A DNA stretch of 64,000 nucleotides. Origin: an uncultured Gammaproteobacteria bacterium (GTDB taxonomy: Bacteria; Patescibacteriota; Microgenomatia; Levybacterales; GWA1-39-11). The position numbers were made by a program, and so were the translations under genes. The notes under the pieces were generated by a model. That model was not told where the DNA came from. It was given only the letters and a program-made list of their open reading frames with translations, and searched no databases. The DNA lies in NCBI GenBank assembly GCA_964406795.1, contig CAYOTA010000003.1:49252-113251 (forward strand), given 5' to 3'. Shown here in pieces: positions 10,527 to 18,532 of this stretch (its first letter is position 1; each line of letters begins with the position of its first letter).

Positions 10527-11552
10527 TTGTATAATAGCTTTATGAACAACACTGAATTAAAAGAACGCGCAGAGATTATTCTTCAAAAGTTAAATCTTCC
10601 TGAAAAAGAAATAGAACTCAAAAAAATAGAAACAGAGAGTATGAGTCCTGACTTTTGGAAAGATACCCAAAATGCTACCTCTTTGATGAAGGAAATGGGT
10701 AATCTTCAAAAAGAATTGGAATCTGCAAGAAGGTTAAAAGAATTATTAGACTTAGGGCATTTTTCTGAATTAGAACACTTTATAAAGGATTTAGAGTTGT
10801 ATTTATATCTGGCAGGTCCTCATGATAAACAGAATGTCATTATGACCATCTCAGCGGGTCAGGGCGGAGTGGATGCTATGGATTGGACACAGATGTTGTA
10901 TAGATTGTATGTTCGCTACTGTGAGAGGCGTGGATGGAAGACTGAGGAGATAGATCTGGCAACTGGTGAGGAGGCAGGAATTAAAAAAGTGGCATTTGAA
11001 ATTAAAGGAGATTTTGCGTATGGATACTTAAAAGGCGAGCAGGGTGTGCACAGGCTTGTTAGACTATCTCCGTTTAATTCTGCAAATTTACGACAAACAT
11101 CATTTGCGCTAATTGAAGTGCTGCCTCAAATAGAAAAGGTTGAGGGACTTGAGATTAAGGACGATGATTTGGAGTGGGACTTTTTTAGAAGTGGAGGGCA
11201 TGGTGGGCAAAACGTAAATAAAGTGTCTACTGCAGTGCGGTTAACGCATAAGCCGTCAGGGATTATTGTCACATGCTCTCAGGAGCGGTATCAAAACCAA
11301 AACCGCGAGAATGCCCTAAAAATGCTGAAAGCGCGGTTATGGGTAAAGCAAGAAGAGGACCGGGCAAAGGCAGAGAAAGATATGAAAGGTGTCTACATTG
11401 CGCCATCATGGGGAAATCAAATTAGGAATTATGTGCTTCACCCATATCAATTAGTGAAAGATACAAGAACTGGTATTGAAACCGGAAACACATCAGCCGT
11501 ATTGGATGGAGACATTGATATATTCATCGAAGCCGAACTCAAAACATCATAG
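10527..11552 (+). CDS. prfB: Peptide chain release factor 2
   Basis: SPF tripeptide motif and GGQ motif ([12 protein letters not shown]) present; uninterrupted ORF (no +1 frameshift site); track start is TTG, first ATG at about 10542. Confidence 0.9.
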
Positions 11553-12625: not shown

Positions 12626-13399
12626 ATGATTTTGTTTCATGAAGTATCAAAAAAGTACGGTAATGACTATGGAGCACTGGAAAGTGTTTCATTTACTATT
12701 CCTCAGGGCGAATTTGCCTATCTAATAGGTCCTACGGGTTCAGGAAAAACAACTATTTTTAGGCTTATCATAAGGGATCTTGTGCCAACTGATGGTAACA
12801 TCATGCTGGGCGAATGGGATATAGTAAAGCTACCCCGTAAAAAAGTACCTGTTTTAAGACGTAAGGTGGGAGTTATTTTCCAGGATTTAAAACTTTTATT
12901 TGATAGAACTGTATCTGAAAACGTTATGTTGCCGCTTTTGTTTTCAGGAGTAAAGGAAAAAGAGGCGCACGCACGAGCAGCAGAAGCCTTAACTGAAGTA
13001 GGGCTTGCAGAAAGCGCTGATAAATTTCCTATTCAGCTTTCAGGAGGAGAGAGGCAACGGGTAGCCATTGCTCGAGCACTTGTTTTTAGACCTGAGATAT
13101 TGTTAGCAGATGAACCTACCGGTAACTTAGATATAAAAACATCCCAACAAATTGTGGACTTGTTAAAAGCAATAAATAAAAAGGGAACCACCATTTTTAT
13201 GGCAACACACAATGAAGGACTTATAGGTGTGTCCGATAGGGTGATAAAATTAGAAAACGGAAAACTTGTGGAGGATAAAAATAAAAAGCAAGAAAAGCCT
13301 CATGCACAACCAAAAGAAGAAGACACAAAGCATTCTGAAAAATCAGAAAGTAAGAAAGAAGAAAAAGAAGAGCAAAAAAAAGAAGAAAAGGAAAAATAA
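12626..13399 (+). CDS. ftsE: Cell division ATP-binding protein FtsE with Lys/Glu-rich C-terminal tail
   Basis: Walker A GPTGSGKTT, ABC signature LSGGERQR, Walker B ILLADEP; followed by ftsX. Confidence 0.85.
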   Translation: MILFHEVSKKYGNDYGALESVSFTIPQGEFAYLIGPTGSGKTTIFRLIIRDLVPTDGNIMLGEWDIVKLPRKKVPVLRRKVGVIFQDLKLLFDRTVSENVMLPLLFSGVKEKEAHARAAEALTEVGLAESADKFPIQLSGGERQRVAIARALVFRPEILLADEPTGNLDIKTSQQIVDLLKAINKKGTTIFMATHNEGLIGVSDRVIKLENGKLVEDKNKKQEKPHAQPKEEDTKHSEKSESKKEEKEEQKKEEKEK

Positions 13400-13400
13400 T

Positions 13401-14264
13401 ATGTATCTTAAAACTGTTGCCAAATATATAAGACGCTCGCCATATCAAGCAATTTCGGCATTGCTCATTATGACGCTTACTTTTTTTGTTATAACATGTT
13501 TTGCGTTTCTGACAATAATTTCTGTTCGTCTCATAGATTATTTAGAATCTCGTCCCCAATTAACCGTGTTTTTTACAGATATAGCAACCTCTGAGGATAT
13601 TGTTGCTTTAAGATCCCAACTTGAGCAGACACAAAAAACTGTGTCAGTTAAGTATATTTCAAAAGAGGAAGCGTTGCAGATTTATCAACAGCAAAATAAA
13701 AATGATCCCATTTTACTAGATCTTGTTACAGCTGAAGTGCTTCCAGCATCTCTTGAAATCCAAACCTTACAAGCGGAAGACCTTTCCTCACTCGTCCCTA
13801 TTGTGAAAGATGCTCCCAGCGTTGAAGAGATTGTATACCAACAAGATATAGTAGATAAGCTTATTGCCTGGACAAATGGTTTGCGTATTGCAGGAGTTGG
13901 CATTATTTCGATTCTTATTGTAGTATCTATCTTTGTAATACTTACGATAATTGGAATTAAGATTACGATTAGGCGTGAGGAAATTGAAATAATGAAGCTT
14001 ATAGGAGCTTCAAATTGGTTTATAAGAACTCCGTTTTTACTTGAAGGAATGTTCTATGGATTTACGGGAGCACTCTTAGGATGGGCATTTTCATATGGAA
14101 TACTAGTTTTTTTGACTCCGCAAATCTCTTCTTTTCTCCAGGGGATGCCAGTATTCCCTATTTCGTATATTTTAGTTTTGGAAGTTTTGGGAGTACAGCT
14201 TATTGTCGCATGTATGCTAGGTGCATTTGCAAGTTTCATGGCAGTTTTGCGCTACCTTAAGTAA
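13401..14264 (+). CDS. ftsX: Cell division permease FtsX
   Basis: ATG 2 nt after ftsE stop; 4 TM helices with large periplasmic loop; track ORF 13266..14264 extended upstream in same frame through ftsE tail. Confidence 0.8.
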   Translation: MYLKTVAKYIRRSPYQAISALLIMTLTFFVITCFAFLTIISVRLIDYLESRPQLTVFFTDIATSEDIVALRSQLEQTQKTVSVKYISKEEALQIYQQQNKNDPILLDLVTAEVLPASLEIQTLQAEDLSSLVPIVKDAPSVEEIVYQQDIVDKLIAWTNGLRIAGVGIISILIVVSIFVILTIIGIKITIRREEIEIMKLIGASNWFIRTPFLLEGMFYGFTGALLGWAFSYGILVFLTPQISSFLQGMPVFPISYILVLEVLGVQLIVACMLGAFASFMAVLRYLK

Positions 14265-15499
14265 TGAAAAAATTTTTGTATGCAATCTTCTTTATTATTC
14301 TTCTAACCTTTGTTATACGACAAAGCGCTGGTATTGTGTATGCACAGGAGCAAACCGGAACACCTACCCCTACACCCACACAAGGAGTAGATAATTCAAA
14401 GCTAAACAGCCTACAAAGTCAGATTAATGAGTATCAAACCAAAGTAGTTGAGCTGCAGGGGCAGGCAAAGACTCTAAACTCCCAAATCCAGATAATGGAT
14501 AATCAGATAAAATTAACAGAATTAAAAATTGATGAGGCACGGGAGCGTTTATTAGAGATCACTGATAATATTGAAGCAGCTCAAAATAGAATTGGAGGTT
14601 TGGAGCAAGACATATCAGTTTCAGCAAAGGCGCTTATTGGCCGCATAAATGCCACCTATCAGGTGGGACGTATTGATCCATGGCAAGTTTTTCTAACGTC
14701 AGATAACATTTCCAATTTTTTAACTCGTCTTACCTATCTACGAGTAGTTCAGGCATATGATAAGAAAACGATTTATGCTGCCCAACAATCTAAAGAAAAT
14801 TATGAACGGGAAAAAACATTACTTGAAGATAAACAAGCAGAGGAAGAAACTGTGCGTGCTGAGTTAGAAGGTTATGGTACAAAATTAGAGCAAGAAAAAA
14901 AGCTAAAGGATGAGCTGCTTTCTGTAACCAAGAATTCAGAGCGTGAATACCAAAAGAGACTTTCCGACGCTATGCGGGAGCTGCAGCAGATCCAAAAAGC
15001 AGCACAAGTTCTTATTTCAACTGAACCACGGGATGTAAAACGAGGAGAATTAATTGGGTTAATGGGAAATACTGGTTATTCATTTGGGGCACATTTACAT
15101 TTTGGTGTTTATAATCTTACATCTCTTTCAGATTATAATTATTATGCCGGTCATGAAAATCCAGCTAATGTGCTAGAGAACAAATCGGTCAACTGGAAAA
15201 CTGGGTGTTTAGGAGACCCTTCCGGAATGTCAAACACGGGAAGTGGGGGGGTTTCTTGGCCGCTTGATACTGGAGATCTTCGTATATCACAAGGTTATGG
15301 ACAAACATGTTATAGCGATGTGTATTATAAAGGTAGGCCACATCCAGCATTTGATATGTACAACAACACTATCATTTTAATAAAAGCTGTTGACGATGGA
15401 AAAGCGTACTTTTGTAGAAATTGTACAGGTGATGGTGCAAATGGTGTATTTCTTTTTCACGCAAATGGGAAGATGACACTCTATTGGCATTTACAATAG
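14264..15499 (+). CDS. EnvC-like coiled-coil M23 (LytM) peptidase, catalytic motifs in permuted order
   Basis: Signal/TM, long coiled coil, then GNTGYSFGAHLHF (HxH motif) preceding ISQGYG...HPAFDM (HxxxD) and HANGKMTLYWHL at the C-terminus. Confidence 0.7.
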   Translation: MKKFLYAIFFIILLTFVIRQSAGIVYAQEQTGTPTPTPTQGVDNSKLNSLQSQINEYQTKVVELQGQAKTLNSQIQIMDNQIKLTELKIDEARERLLEITDNIEAAQNRIGGLEQDISVSAKALIGRINATYQVGRIDPWQVFLTSDNISNFLTRLTYLRVVQAYDKKTIYAAQQSKENYEREKTLLEDKQAEEETVRAELEGYGTKLEQEKKLKDELLSVTKNSEREYQKRLSDAMRELQQIQKAAQVLISTEPRDVKRGELIGLMGNTGYSFGAHLHFGVYNLTSLSDYNYYAGHENPANVLENKSVNWKTGCLGDPSGMSNTGSGGVSWPLDTGDLRISQGYGQTCYSDVYYKGRPHPAFDMYNNTIILIKAVDDGKAYFCRNCTGDGANGVFLFHANGKMTLYWHLQ

Positions 15500-15518: not shown

Positions 15519-16313
15519 ATGTGTATGAGGGTGTTTCTAATTCTGTTTGCTTCCTTTGTATTTATTTCTTTTTATCCTTCACTTATTTTTGCTCGCGATA
15601 TCTCCATAACTGCTAATAAAAGTTCTTTATTTAGTGATGAAGAACTAGTTTTAACCGCCTCTGTGTCAGGATTTACTAAGGACGAGCAAGTATATATAAA
15701 AGGTGCATTTTTTCAAGAAGGGACAGCTAATTATTTTGGTTTTACGAAGTACAATAATGATTGGATTAAAAATAGTGTGTCCGCTCAGTCCCAAAGATTA
15801 ATTAAAATGAATGAGTGGGATTTTAATCTAATTGTCAAGAATGATGTGCAAGACACAGGATATAAAGGAAACGGAAGTTATAAGTTAAAACTAGGCTATT
15901 ATTATATAACATCAAGTGGGAATTTATCACCAGTAAATTGGTCAACAAACACAGTTGATATCTCGCTATCATATCCTAGTCCAACAGTAACACCCAATCC
16001 AACCTCAACGCCCGCTCCAACTAGTATCCCGTCACCTATCCCTACAAATGTACCTACATTTACGCCGATTCCCACAAATGCCGTTATAAAAGCCATAGCC
16101 CTTGAGCCGACTGGAAAAATTACAAGAGAGGTGCTTGGGATGCAGAGCAAAAACGATGATTTAAAGAAGCCAACTCCTACAGCAGAAGTAGAAACTTCAG
16201 GCAAATTTGTATTGCCGTCACCTTTTTTTCTTTTAGGTATCTCTGTAATTATTACAGGATGTGTTATACTACTTTTTCGCGAATGGAAAAAACAAAAAGA
16301 ATTTGATATATGA
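15519..16313 (+). CDS. Hypothetical cell-surface protein with Pro/Thr-rich linker and C-terminal TM anchor
   Basis: N-terminal signal-like hydrophobic segment, PT-rich low-complexity stretch, C-terminal TM helix plus basic tail. Confidence 0.4.
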   Translation: MCMRVFLILFASFVFISFYPSLIFARDISITANKSSLFSDEELVLTASVSGFTKDEQVYIKGAFFQEGTANYFGFTKYNNDWIKNSVSAQSQRLIKMNEWDFNLIVKNDVQDTGYKGNGSYKLKLGYYYITSSGNLSPVNWSTNTVDISLSYPSPTVTPNPTSTPAPTSIPSPIPTNVPTFTPIPTNAVIKAIALEPTGKITREVLGMQSKNDDLKKPTPTAEVETSGKFVLPSPFFLLGISVIITGCVILLFREWKKQKEFDI

Positions 16314-17656: not shown

Positions 17657-18532
17657 GTGAATTATCTTAAGCATTTATTACTACCCCATCAAACCAATAA
17701 CTTCAGAGCAAAAATATTACATCACAGTTTCTTAATTGTATTTGTAATAGGTTTTTTGTCGCTTTCTTGCGGAGTAATATTAGTAAAAAAATCTTACCCA
17801 CAGGTTTTGGGGATTTCTTATTCCATTAACGAAGCTCAGCTGCTTGAAGAAACAAATAAACAGCGTGTGATGCGTGGAGTTGAGCCATTGAGGCTGAGTT
17901 CAGCCTTAAGTCAGGCAGCTTCTCAGAAATCTAATTACATGTTTGAGAAAAACTACTGGGCACACTTTGCACCGGATGGAACAACACCCTGGTCGTTTAT
18001 TAAGTCTGCTGGATATGAATATTTATATGCTGGTGAGAATTTAGCTAAAGGCTTTACGGATTCGTCTGAAGTAGCAGATGCATGGATGAATTCACCAACA
18101 CATAGGGAAAACTTATTATCTTCAAAATATAGGGATATAGGTTTTTCAGTTCAAGAAGGGATCCTAAACGGAGAAAATACCGTAGTAGTTGTGCAATTGT
18201 TAGGTACACCATTGGGGTCGGAGCAGGGTAACAACATCAGTACCCCATTTCAACAAGTGGCGCAAGAAGCGCCCGCTGTTGCTGTGAAATCCGAGCAGGA
18301 GAGTACAGCCCCGCTAGATTCTGTTTCAAAGCCGTTTATAAATGCTCCTACAACCACCAGATCACTAAGCGTTATTTTCTTGTTCTTTATAATTACCGTT
18401 TTAATACTGGATTTAGTTATTGTGGAAAAGAAAAAACTTCCACGCATTTTGGGTCATAACTTAGATCACATCATTATTCTTACCTTATTTTTAGTTTTTA
18501 TATTCCTTGAGAAAACAGGAGGTGTTCTGTGA
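17657..18532 (+). CDS. CAP (SCP/PR-1-like) domain protein, membrane-anchored
   Basis: CAP signature region YWAHFAPDG...YAGENLAKG...HRENLL; N- and C-terminal TM helices. Confidence 0.55.
   Translation: MNYLKHLLLPHQTNNFRAKILHHSFLIVFVIGFLSLSCGVILVKKSYPQVLGISYSINEAQLLEETNKQRVMRGVEPLRLSSALSQAASQKSNYMFEKNYWAHFAPDGTTPWSFIKSAGYEYLYAGENLAKGFTDSSEVADAWMNSPTHRENLLSSKYRDIGFSVQEGILNGENTVVVVQLLGTPLGSEQGNNISTPFQQVAQEAPAVAVKSEQESTAPLDSVSKPFINAPTTTRSLSVIFLFFIITVLILDLVIVEKKKLPRILGHNLDHIIILTLFLVFIFLEKTGGVL

What the first reader, a model, noticed from the sequence alone, without database searches (positions are those of the whole stretch)
14264..15499. FtsEX-associated EnvC-like protein carries an apparently circularly permuted M23/LytM domain
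After the coiled coil, the segment VKRGELIGLMGNTGYSFGAHLHF comes first in the protein; it is normally the C-terminal HxH part of LytM. A ~55-aa linker follows. Then comes the canonical N-terminal part, ISQGYG...HPAFDM (HxxxD) and FLFHANGKMTLYWHL, and the protein ends there. All catalytic motifs are present but in swapped order. I am not aware of this arrangement being described for EnvC or LytM proteins. It may yield a functional permuted fold, or two complementary half-domains.
Basis: seen in the sequence. Interest (0 to 1): 0.55.

Follow-up and report, generated by a model that had tools for sequence, protein, structure and literature searches.

The report
Circularly permuted M23 cell-division peptidase
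The cell-wall-cutting enzyme encoded next to the division genes ftsE and ftsX in this uncultured Patescibacteria genome has its two catalytic halves in swapped order; this rearrangement is real, is conserved across a whole class of these bacteria, and was not found described in the literature searched.

Summary
ORF 14264-15499 (411 aa) overlaps the ftsX stop codon by one base in a prfB…ftsE-ftsX operon. It encodes a signal peptide, an EnvC/PcsB-like coiled coil and an M23 (LytM) domain. In that domain the C-terminal HxH segment (residues 256-305) comes before the N-terminal HxxxD…YxH segment (330-411).

Re-joining the two segments in canonical order turns split, out-of-order matches into one collinear match. 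This holds for Pfam (profile positions 3-89 of 96), for PDB chain 3slu (E 2.6e-9) and for a profile-profile comparison (E 3e-36, against 5e-17 for the native order).

It is not an assembly artefact. All 120 closest homologues listed and 52 loci in reference genomes share the order, as do about 75 of the best 150 clusters at 50% identity. The named hosts are Levy-, Woese- and Gottesmanbacteria and WWE3. A canonical-order relative sits downstream of ftsEX and aligns collinearly except for the swapped segment.

All five catalytic residues are conserved, so this is probably an active endopeptidase controlled by FtsEX, not an EnvC-type activator. AlphaFold2 gives one confident compact domain (pLDDT 91), but Foldseek found no M23 match, so the fold is not confirmed. 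No paper found describes a permuted M23. I rate it a new variant of a known kind, of moderate interest.

The parts
12626..13399 (+). ftsE (ABC ATPase)
   Evidence: Pfam ABC_tran E 6e-34. It lies upstream of ftsX in about 40 of 52 related loci.
13401..14264 (+). ftsX (probable ATG start at 13401; the mechanical ORF starts at 13266)
   Evidence: Pfam FtsX_ECD E 2e-15 and FtsX E 3.7e-13. Its stop codon overlaps the ATG of the next gene (TAATG).
14264..15499 (+). Whole gene: coiled-coil protein with a circularly permuted M23 domain (411 aa plus stop codon)
   Evidence: An identical protein, P0001, lies on a 120-kb public contig.
14264..14344 (+). Signal peptide or N-terminal membrane helix (residues 1-27; VYA|QE looks like a cleavage site)
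   Evidence: Read from the sequence. AlphaFold2 predicts a helix at residues 2-21. No signal-peptide predictor was run.
14396..15004 (+). Coiled-coil hairpin (residues 45-247; helices 45-66, 71-134 and 149-247; tip 135-148)
   Evidence: AlphaFold2 secondary structure. EnvC matches: PDB 8hd0_E residues 36-232, E 4.9e-5; NCBIfam EnvC E 2.4e-13, below its cut-off. Foldseek best hits are EnvC in the FtsEX complex (8tzl_E, 6tpi_A), then the RipA and RipC coiled coils.
14894..15013 (+). Highly conserved last stretch of the coiled coil (residues 211-250), a candidate restraining-arm-like helix
   Evidence: Mean column identity is 0.79 here, 0.61-0.64 for the rest of the coiled coil and 0.81-0.82 for the catalytic segments. 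Twenty of its 40 columns are at least 90% conserved, and the invariant ones are spaced 3-4 residues apart.
15029..15178 (+). Segment A (residues 256-305): the C-terminal part of a canonical M23 domain, namely the GD-box-like strand VKRGELIG, the HxH motif (H277, H279) and the tail ending NPANVLE
   Evidence: Matches Pfam profile positions 59-89 of 96. Aligns to residues 370-416 of canonical P0169. H277 is invariant and H279 is at least 90% conserved.
15179..15250 (+). Junction (residues 306-329) that joins the canonical C-terminus to the canonical N-terminus; it contains invariant W311 and C315
   Evidence: AlphaFold2 predicts two strands here with high pLDDT. The junction is reduced to 4 residues (KQYG) in P0149.
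15251..15496 (+). Segment B (residues 330-411): the N-terminal part of a canonical M23 domain, namely WPL…ISQGYG, HxxxD (H360, D364) and LYWH409LQ
   Evidence: Aligns to 3slu residues 227-295 and to P0169 residues 278-367. hhalign E 4.6e-17. H360, D364 and H409 are invariant.
15497..15499 (+). Stop codon two residues after the catalytic His409
   Evidence: All 120 close homologues, and 68 of 75 permuted 50%-identity cluster representatives, end exactly two residues after this His.
15519..16313 (+). Conserved downstream gene (264 aa; signal peptide, Pro/Thr-rich stretch, C-terminal membrane anchor); whether it belongs to the module is uncertain
   Evidence: No Pfam match. It is found downstream of the permuted-M23 gene in about 25 of 52 loci.

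Best explanation
The gene encodes the extracytoplasmic partner of the FtsEX division ABC complex in a Microgenomatia (Levybacteria-like) bacterium. The protein has a secretion signal, an EnvC/PcsB-type antiparallel coiled coil that should dock on the FtsX extracellular domains, and a zinc M23 (lysostaphin/LytM-type) peptidoglycan endopeptidase domain that is circularly permuted.

The canonical order is [WP…HxxxD…YxHL][GD-box…HxH…NPxxYL]. Here the second block comes first, attached by about 8 residues to the end of the coiled coil. The canonical C- and N-termini are fused through a short junction. The chain ends two residues after the catalytic His of the YxHL strand.

The three zinc ligands (H360, D364, H279) and the two catalytic histidines (H277, H409) are all kept. 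The domain is therefore most likely an active hydrolase that cuts septal peptidoglycan cross-links itself, under ATP-driven control by FtsEX. It is unlikely to be an EnvC-type amidase activator.

The permutation most likely arose from a canonical FtsEX-linked coiled-coil-M23 ancestor by tandem duplication and loss of the outer halves, before the Levy-, Woese- and Gottesmanbacteria and WWE3 lineages diverged.

What is shown: the permutation, its conservation, the operon linkage, the retention of catalytic residues, and the existence of canonical-order FtsEX-linked relatives. What is inferred: enzymatic activity, binding to FtsX, the regulation mechanism and the duplication route.

The confidence of 0.8 is a composite: about 0.95 for the permutation itself and about 0.7 for the functional reading.
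For: - Out-of-order matches to M23.
- Single collinear matches after de-permutation: Pfam positions 3-89 of 96 at 51.2 bits; 3slu E 2.6e-9; hhalign 99.9%, E 3e-36, 128 columns against 79 columns in native order; one-piece tblastn alignments spanning the artificial junction in all 40 listed phage records, most annotated as M23-type peptidases, of 121 matched.
- Conservation: 670 homologues, and the top 120 are all full-length with the same order. H277, H360, D364 and H409 are invariant and H279 is at least 90% conserved.
- About 75 of the best 150 clusters at 50% identity are permuted and keep the catalytic set.
- Taxa named in the records are Levyibacteriota, Gottesmanbacteria, Woesebacteria, WWE3 and Microgenomates.
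- The synteny prfB…ftsE-ftsX-gene is seen in about 40 of 52 loci and in Woesebacteria locus L053.
- Canonical-order P0169 and P0283 lie directly after ftsE-ftsX. P0169 aligns collinearly over the coiled coil and segment B, with only segment A swapped.
- AlphaFold2 folds residues 248-411 into one compact domain, pLDDT 91.3 and pTM 0.89.
- The full-length model's best structural hits are EnvC in FtsEX complexes and the RipA and RipC coiled coils.
- Tandem M23-M23 proteins exist (P0159, P0203). P0149 joins the canonical end DPFPYL to the canonical start WPL by 4 residues.
Against: - Foldseek of the confident domain model found no M23 chain in the PDB (best E 0.25). In BFVD there were only three weak hits, to cyanophage virion proteins whose M23 content I could not verify.
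- No biochemical data exist for any family member.
- A subset of loci carry the coiled-coil permuted-M23 gene away from ftsEX (L008, L010-L012, L015, L017, L019), so FtsEX coupling is not universal.
- The match to the NCBIfam EnvC model and the window protein's own match to the Pfam PcsB coiled-coil model are both below their cut-offs.
Confidence: 0.8

Rival explanations
1. It is a sequencing or assembly rearrangement, or a frameshifted or truncated remnant of a tandem M23-M23 gene, and not a real protein architecture.
For: Tandem M23-M23 proteins do exist, and the permuted profile matches across their internal junction (P0159, P0161, P0203, P0205). One related record (L030) has a run of N inside the gene.
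Against: The order, the length (about 400-430 aa) and the stop codon two residues after the last His are identical in all 120 closest homologues. They hold in 68 of 75 permuted 50%-identity clusters drawn from independent assemblies and sources (NCBI, JGI, ENA, Logan), and the order holds in 52 loci of reference genomes. The coiled coil always precedes segment A in frame. No half-domain is left over at either end.
Confidence: 0.01
2. It is an EnvC-type regulator: the M23-like domain does not cut peptidoglycan but activates a separate amidase or other hydrolase.
For: It has the same operon position and coiled coil as EnvC. LytM factors commonly act as activators (PMC11627006). A degenerate paralogue without a coiled coil exists in Gottesmanbacteria, with KLH in place of HLH and NNGID in place of HPAFD (L052 / P0142), which shows that the permuted domain can lose its catalytic residues.
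Against: EnvC lacks the zinc ligands (PMC11627006). Here H277, H360, D364 and H409 are invariant and H279 is at least 90% conserved among 56 aligned homologues, and the set is kept in nearly all permuted clusters. A Tyr is also conserved near the position of the LytM oxyanion Tyr204 (Y355 invariant; role of Tyr204 from PMC9662197). Such conservation is not expected for a non-catalytic scaffold.
Confidence: 0.1
3. The two segments are half-domains that complement each other between chains, in a domain-swapped dimer, instead of folding within one chain.
For: PcsB, another FtsEX partner, is a dimer in its crystal (PDB 4cgk appears among the hits; the dimer statement is from my own knowledge). The junction is only 4 residues in some members (P0149), which might strain an intramolecular fold.
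Against: AlphaFold2 folds the single chain confidently (pTM 0.89), with a structured junction. The permuted domain also occurs alone behind a signal peptide (P0123, P0125, P0138) and at the end of an unrelated 1118-aa protein (P0162), so it behaves as an autonomous module. EnvC binds FtsX as one copy per two FtsX extracellular domains (PMC11627006).
Confidence: 0.05

Closest known systems
EnvC (E. coli, V. cholerae, P. aeruginosa), the FtsEX-bound coiled-coil LytM factor
   Same: The gene follows ftsE-ftsX. It has an N-terminal secretion signal, a long antiparallel coiled-coil hairpin and an M23/LytM-type domain at the C-terminal end. Sequence and structural matches run along the coiled coil.
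   Different: EnvC's LytM domain is in canonical order and has lost its zinc ligands; it activates AmiA/AmiB through a groove covered by a separate restraining arm (PMC11627006). Here the domain is circularly permuted, keeps all catalytic residues and follows the coiled coil after about 8 residues. The score against the NCBIfam EnvC model is 49.9 bits, against a cut-off of 270.
PcsB (S. pneumoniae), CwlO (B. subtilis) and RipC (M. tuberculosis), FtsEX-controlled coiled-coil hydrolases
   Same: The logic is the same: the coiled-coil partner of FtsX is itself the peptidoglycan hydrolase. The Pfam PcsB coiled-coil model hits many family members, and weakly the window protein. RipA and RipC coiled coils are among the best structural hits. 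One homologue is named 'CwlO-like' by JGI.
   Different: Their catalytic domains are CHAP or NlpC/P60 cysteine peptidases, not a zinc M23 domain.
Canonical M23B peptidases (LytM, lysostaphin, ShyA/MepM, Csd3) and the canonical FtsEX-linked coiled-coil-M23 proteins of other uncultured bacteria, probably Patescibacteria (P0169, P0283)
   Same: The same motifs are present: HxxxD, HxH, the additional His, a conserved Tyr before HxxxD, and the GD-box-like strand. P0169 and P0283 also share the operon position and a homologous coiled coil.
   Different: The order of the two halves is swapped. The 'additional' His lies about 30 residues before HxH in all described M23 enzymes (PMC9662197), but 130 residues after it here. 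Canonical P0169 links the coiled coil to the domain by a charged linker of about 40 residues; the permuted form uses about 8 residues.
Circularly permuted NlpC/P60 families (YaeF/poxvirus G6R, LRAT-like), and the permuted topologies of the hybrid barrel-sandwich (HABAS) fold
   Same: They set a precedent for circular permutation of a peptidoglycan-hydrolase catalytic domain (PMC6403190), and within the β-fold class that includes a module of M23 peptidases (PMC11515920).
   Different: The first is a different fold and a different chemistry. The second concerns topological variants between distant superfamily members, not a permutation inside the M23 peptidase family.

Membership tests
Peptidase family M23 (MEROPS M23B / Pfam PF01551) | Sequence match above the Pfam gathering score | tested here: met
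   41.8 bits against a cut-off of 28.7, E 1.3e-10, but in two out-of-order stretches. The de-permuted construct scores 51.2 bits in one stretch.
Peptidase family M23 (MEROPS M23B / Pfam PF01551) | Zinc-binding motifs H(x)nD and HxH, plus the additional catalytic His | tested here: met
   H360-x3-D364, H277-L-H279 and H409 are present. They are invariant or nearly invariant in 56 homologues and in nearly all permuted clusters. Motif definitions are from PMC9662197.
Peptidase family M23 (MEROPS M23B / Pfam PF01551) | Canonical order HxxxD … His … HxH along the chain | tested here: not met
   The order here is HxH (277-279) … HxxxD (360-364) … His (409). This is the permutation itself.
Peptidase family M23 (MEROPS M23B / Pfam PF01551) | M23 β-sheet fold with the catalytic residues around one zinc site | tested here: inconclusive
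Peptidase family M23 (MEROPS M23B / Pfam PF01551) | Peptidoglycan endopeptidase activity | not testable with these tools
   No experimental data were found for any family member.
EnvC (NCBIfam NF008644, murein hydrolase activator) | Match above the equivalog cut-off | tested here: not met
   49.9 bits against a cut-off of 270. Only the coiled coil matches (residues 44-241).
EnvC (NCBIfam NF008644, murein hydrolase activator) | Degenerate LytM domain lacking zinc ligands | tested here: not met
   All ligands are present and conserved. The degeneracy of EnvC is described in PMC11627006.
EnvC (NCBIfam NF008644, murein hydrolase activator) | Gene linked to ftsEX, and a coiled coil that binds the FtsX extracellular domain | tested here: inconclusive
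   Linkage is met: there is a 1-nt overlap with ftsX and the synteny holds in about 40 of 52 loci. Binding was not tested.
FtsEX-regulated coiled-coil hydrolases (PcsB / CwlO / RipC type) | N-terminal coiled coil plus a C-terminal catalytically competent hydrolase domain, genetically linked to ftsEX | tested here: met
   The architecture and the operon are shown. Catalytic competence is inferred from residue conservation only. The window protein scores 16.6 bits against the Pfam PcsB coiled-coil model (cut-off 27), but that model is recorded for many homologues.

The most novel reading that the evidence does not exclude
The permutation is adaptive and is not a neutral rewiring. It moves the attachment point of the FtsEX-driven coiled coil, and the free C-terminus, to the rim of the active site, because the break lies two residues after catalytic His409. 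The very conserved last helix (residues 211-250) would then act as a built-in restraining arm that plugs or opens the catalytic groove directly when FtsE hydrolyses ATP. The rigidly fixed two-residue C-terminal tail would be part of this gate or of the active site. If so, this would be a mechanically gated M23 endopeptidase, a mode of control not described for any M23 enzyme.
Probability: 0.25. Interest if true: 0.7.

Novelty: new variant of a known kind. Interest (0 to 1): 0.5.

Why it matters
M23/LytM peptidases are among the most studied cell-wall hydrolases, as lysostaphin-type antibacterials and as division regulators. InterPro delimits the M23 domain from Hx3D up to HxH (PMC9662197). A large natural family with the halves swapped has four consequences.

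- It shows that the fold tolerates a new chain break right beside the catalytic His.
- It explains why these proteins are poorly annotated. Most are called 'hypothetical', and the Pfam hit was flagged only 'faint' for the one divergent member checked (P0195).
- It provides a natural experiment on how FtsEX transmits force to a hydrolase. Canonical-order and permuted versions occupy the same operon slot, the canonical one in unnamed metagenome-derived genomes. One has a charged tether of about 40 residues and the other a tether of about 8 residues placed next to the active site.
- It identifies the likely septal hydrolase of a large group of uncultured, ultra-small bacteria whose cell division is otherwise unstudied.

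Tried and rejected
- **Literature.** Searches combining 'circular permutation', 'circularly permuted', 'permuted' or 'permut' with M23, LytM domain or lysostaphin, and searches on Patescibacteria with FtsEX, found no description of a permuted M23. They returned only permuted NlpC/P60 and the permuted HABAS topologies.
- **Taxon names.** Cluster look-ups returned no name for the window protein or for the canonical relatives P0169 and P0283. More distant canonical relatives are from Ryanbacteria and unclassified Patescibacteria.
- **A-B-A hits as duplication intermediates.** The apparent 'A-B-A' proteins (P0207, P0203) turned out to be ordinary tandem M23-M23 proteins, one of them N-terminally truncated.
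- **The four invariant cysteines as a family feature.** C315, C349, C384 and C387 are restricted to the closest (Levybacteria-type) subfamily.
- **RNA genes.** No tRNA or Rfam match was found anywhere in the window.
Full report
**1. What is at the site**

It is the last gene of a run made up of prfB (10527-11552), a GNAT acetyltransferase, a small membrane protein, ftsE (12626-13399) and ftsX (about 13401-14264). The two division genes are identified by Pfam ABC_tran, FtsX_ECD and FtsX. The ATG of the gene overlaps the ftsX stop codon (TAATG), which indicates co-transcription and translational coupling.

**2. Anatomy of the protein**

| Residues | Feature |
|---|---|
| 1-27 | Hydrophobic signal sequence, ending VYA\|QE |
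| 28-44 | Pro/Thr-rich spacer |
| 45-247 | Long helices in the AlphaFold2 model (45-66, 71-134, 149-247), forming a coiled-coil hairpin |
| 248-411 | β-rich domain |

- The AlphaFold2 full-length model has pLDDT 77.5.
- The helical part matches EnvC by sequence: PDB 8hd0_E residues 36-232 at E 4.9e-5, and the NCBIfam EnvC model at E 2.4e-13, far below its cut-off.
- The full-length model's best structural hits are EnvC in FtsEX complexes (8tzl_E, 6tpi_A), followed by the RipA and RipC coiled coils.

**3. The permutation is real**

- Pfam Peptidase_M23 passes its threshold (41.8 bits against 28.7), but in two stretches. The first stretch in the protein (254-284) matches the end of the profile (positions 59-89 of 96).
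- Against PDB chain 3slu, query 340-410 aligns to chain 227-295, and query 256-281 aligns to chain 303-328.
- I built a de-permuted sequence (residues 328-411 followed by 251-307).
  - It gives one contiguous Pfam match (profile positions 3-89, 51.2 bits).
  - It gives contiguous alignments to solved M23 enzymes. For 3slu the E-value is 2.6e-9, against 0.0019 for the native order. ShyA, lysostaphin, Csd3 and zoocin A also match.
  - It gives one-piece tblastn alignments that span the artificial junction in all 40 listed phage records, most of them annotated as M23-type peptidases, out of 121 records matched.
- In a profile-profile comparison against 57 canonical M23 domains, the de-permuted family alignment gives 99.9% probability, E 3.3e-36 and 128 aligned columns. 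The native order aligns only the second half (79 columns, E 4.6e-17).

The break lies between '…LYWHLQ' and 'VLISTEPRDVKRGELIG…', that is, two residues after the His equivalent to LytM His260. [quoted passage not shown] Here it lies 130 residues after it.

**4. It is not an artefact, and it is old**

- A search of 5.8 billion proteins returned 670 homologues. The best 120 are all 388-450 aa long, and all end two residues after the last His.
- In an alignment of 56 of them, H277, H360, D364 and H409 are invariant and H279 is at least 90% conserved.
- A scan of one genome per GTDB species found 52 loci. Record titles name Levyibacteriota, Gottesmanbacteria, WWE3 and Microgenomates. Many other MAGs are titled 'Gammaproteobacteria', which looks like a labelling error.
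- An exhaustive HMM search of 1.84 billion 50%-identity representatives, using the permuted-domain profile, gave 7198 hits at E ≤ 1e-3 and 169 at E ≤ 1e-10.
- I classified the best 150 by the order of the two halves:
  - about 75 are permuted, and 68 of these stop exactly two residues after the His;
  - 60 are canonical and end with '…NPxxYL';
  - about 9 are multi-domain M23 proteins with tandem domains, which the permuted profile matches across the internal junction.
- Named divergent permuted members are from Woesebacteria, WWE3/Katanobacteria and unclassified Patescibacteria.

**5. Genomic context**

- The order prfB … ftsE - ftsX - permuted gene is found in about 40 of the 52 loci, and in a Woesebacteria contig (L053).
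- A minority of Levybacteria-type loci carry the coiled-coil permuted-M23 gene elsewhere, for example next to the ATP synthase operon in L017.
- The permuted domain also occurs without a coiled coil. It is found behind a signal peptide (P0123, P0125, P0138). It also closes an unrelated 1118-aa protein (P0162). And it appears as a 217-aa paralogue with degenerate motifs (KLH, NNGID) in Gottesmanbacteria (L052). It therefore behaves as an autonomous module.

**6. Origin**

- Canonical-order proteins P0169 (434 aa) and P0283 (430 aa) lie directly downstream of ftsE-ftsX.
- BLASTP of the window protein against P0169 aligns the coiled coil and segment B collinearly. There is a gap exactly where segment A is inserted, and segment A aligns separately to the C-terminal end of P0169. 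This is the pattern expected of a circular permutation.
- P0169 even shares the unusual Tyr-rich insertion after HLHF.
- Other canonical relatives sit in a different context, ftsW-murG-gltX-M23; one with the same context is from Ryanbacteria.
- In P0149 the canonical end 'DPFPYL' is joined to the canonical start 'WPL' by only four residues.
- Tandem M23-M23 proteins exist (P0159, P0203). Together these fit the classical route of tandem duplication followed by loss of the outer halves. That route is inferred, not shown.

**7. Function and mechanism**

- What is shown: operon linkage to ftsEX; an EnvC-like coiled coil; a complete and conserved M23 catalytic set, including a conserved Tyr near the position of the LytM oxyanion Tyr204; and a confident single-domain AlphaFold2 model for residues 248-411 (pLDDT 91.3, pTM 0.89).
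- What is inferred: the protein docks on the FtsX extracellular domains, as EnvC, RipC and PcsB do (PMC11627006). It is itself the septal endopeptidase, following the PcsB/CwlO/RipC logic, and not an amidase activator, because EnvC-type LytM factors have lost the zinc ligands.
- Two further observations suggest how it might be controlled.
  - The last 40 residues of the coiled coil (211-250) are as conserved as the catalytic domain: 0.79, against 0.61-0.64 for the rest of the coiled coil. The invariant residues are spaced 3-4 apart, on one helix face.
  - The permutation attaches this helix, through about 8 residues, next to the strand that carries catalytic His409. Canonical P0169 instead uses a charged tether of about 40 residues to the far end of the domain.
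- A restraining-arm-like gate at the active site is therefore plausible but untested.

**8. Weak points**

- No experiment exists for any member of the family.

**9. Novelty**

- Seven full-text searches found no description of a permuted M23 or LytM domain.
- The nearest precedents are the permuted NlpC/P60 families (PMC6403190) and the permuted topologies of the hybrid barrel-sandwich fold, to which an M23 module belongs (PMC11515920).
- Circular permutation is a well-known evolutionary event, so this is a new variant of a known kind and not a new category.
- It is of moderate interest. It is a clean, ancient permutation that spans several candidate phyla, in a heavily studied enzyme family. 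It lies at a mechanistically informative position and has a canonical-order relative in the same operon slot for comparison.

Noticed in passing
window 15519-16313 (+): A 264-aa ORF with a signal peptide, a Pro/Thr-rich stretch and a C-terminal membrane anchor. It has no Pfam match, yet it is conserved directly downstream of the permuted-M23 gene in about 25 of 52 related loci. It may be a further component of the division/cell-wall module.
   Followed up: partly
L052 4818-5471 (Gottesmanbacteria LCFP01000001, about 17 kb from the ftsEX-linked copy L048): A second 217-aa paralogue of the permuted domain, without a coiled coil. Its catalytic motifs are degenerate (KLH for HLH, NNGID for HPAFD) and the Cys pair is lost. 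It could be a LytM-factor-like regulator derived from the permuted form. It sits next to a CAP-domain membrane protein similar to window 17657-18532.
   Followed up: partly
window 15206-15208, 15308-15310, 15413-15415, 15422-15424 (codons of C315, C349, C384, C387): Four cysteines are invariant in the 56 closest homologues but are replaced (by Pro, Tyr, Gly and others) in more distant permuted members. They could form two disulfides or a second metal site specific to the Levybacteria-type subfamily.
   Followed up: partly
window 14894-15013 (residues 211-250): The last part of the coiled coil is as conserved as the catalytic domain, with invariant residues every 3-4 positions (K215, L219, T222, E226, Y229, L233, A236, E239, I243, A246, L250). 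Part of the motif (LLS.TK..E..YQ) is shared with canonical P0169.
   Followed up: partly
window 15488-15499, and the C-termini of homologues: The chain end is fixed. All 120 close homologues and 68 of 75 permuted 50%-identity clusters stop exactly two residues after the last catalytic His (…Y[WL]H[LV][QKR]).
   Followed up: yes
L001-L051 record titles: About half of the reference-genome MAGs that carry this typical Patescibacteria operon are titled 'uncultured Gammaproteobacteria bacterium' (one is titled 'Saccharibacteria'). These look like placeholder or wrong taxonomic labels.
   Followed up: no
L017 4311-5495; also L008, L010-L012, L015, L019: A Levybacteria-type subgroup carries the coiled-coil permuted-M23 gene away from ftsEX. 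In L017 it lies between surface-glycan genes (GT87, Wzy_C) and the ATP synthase operon. Whether these genomes also have an ftsEX-linked copy is unknown.
   Followed up: partly
P0162 (1118 aa, metagenomic): A permuted M23 domain closes a very long protein. Its first roughly 970 residues have no Pfam match and no coiled coil, so the permuted module has been recruited into another architecture.
   Followed up: partly
L030 5080-5230: A run of masked or unknown bases (N) interrupts the homologous gene in this public record and splits it into two ORFs. This is an artefact of that record, not biology.
   Followed up: yes
window 1-64000: No tRNA gene and no Rfam family reaches threshold anywhere in the 64-kb window.
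   Followed up: yes
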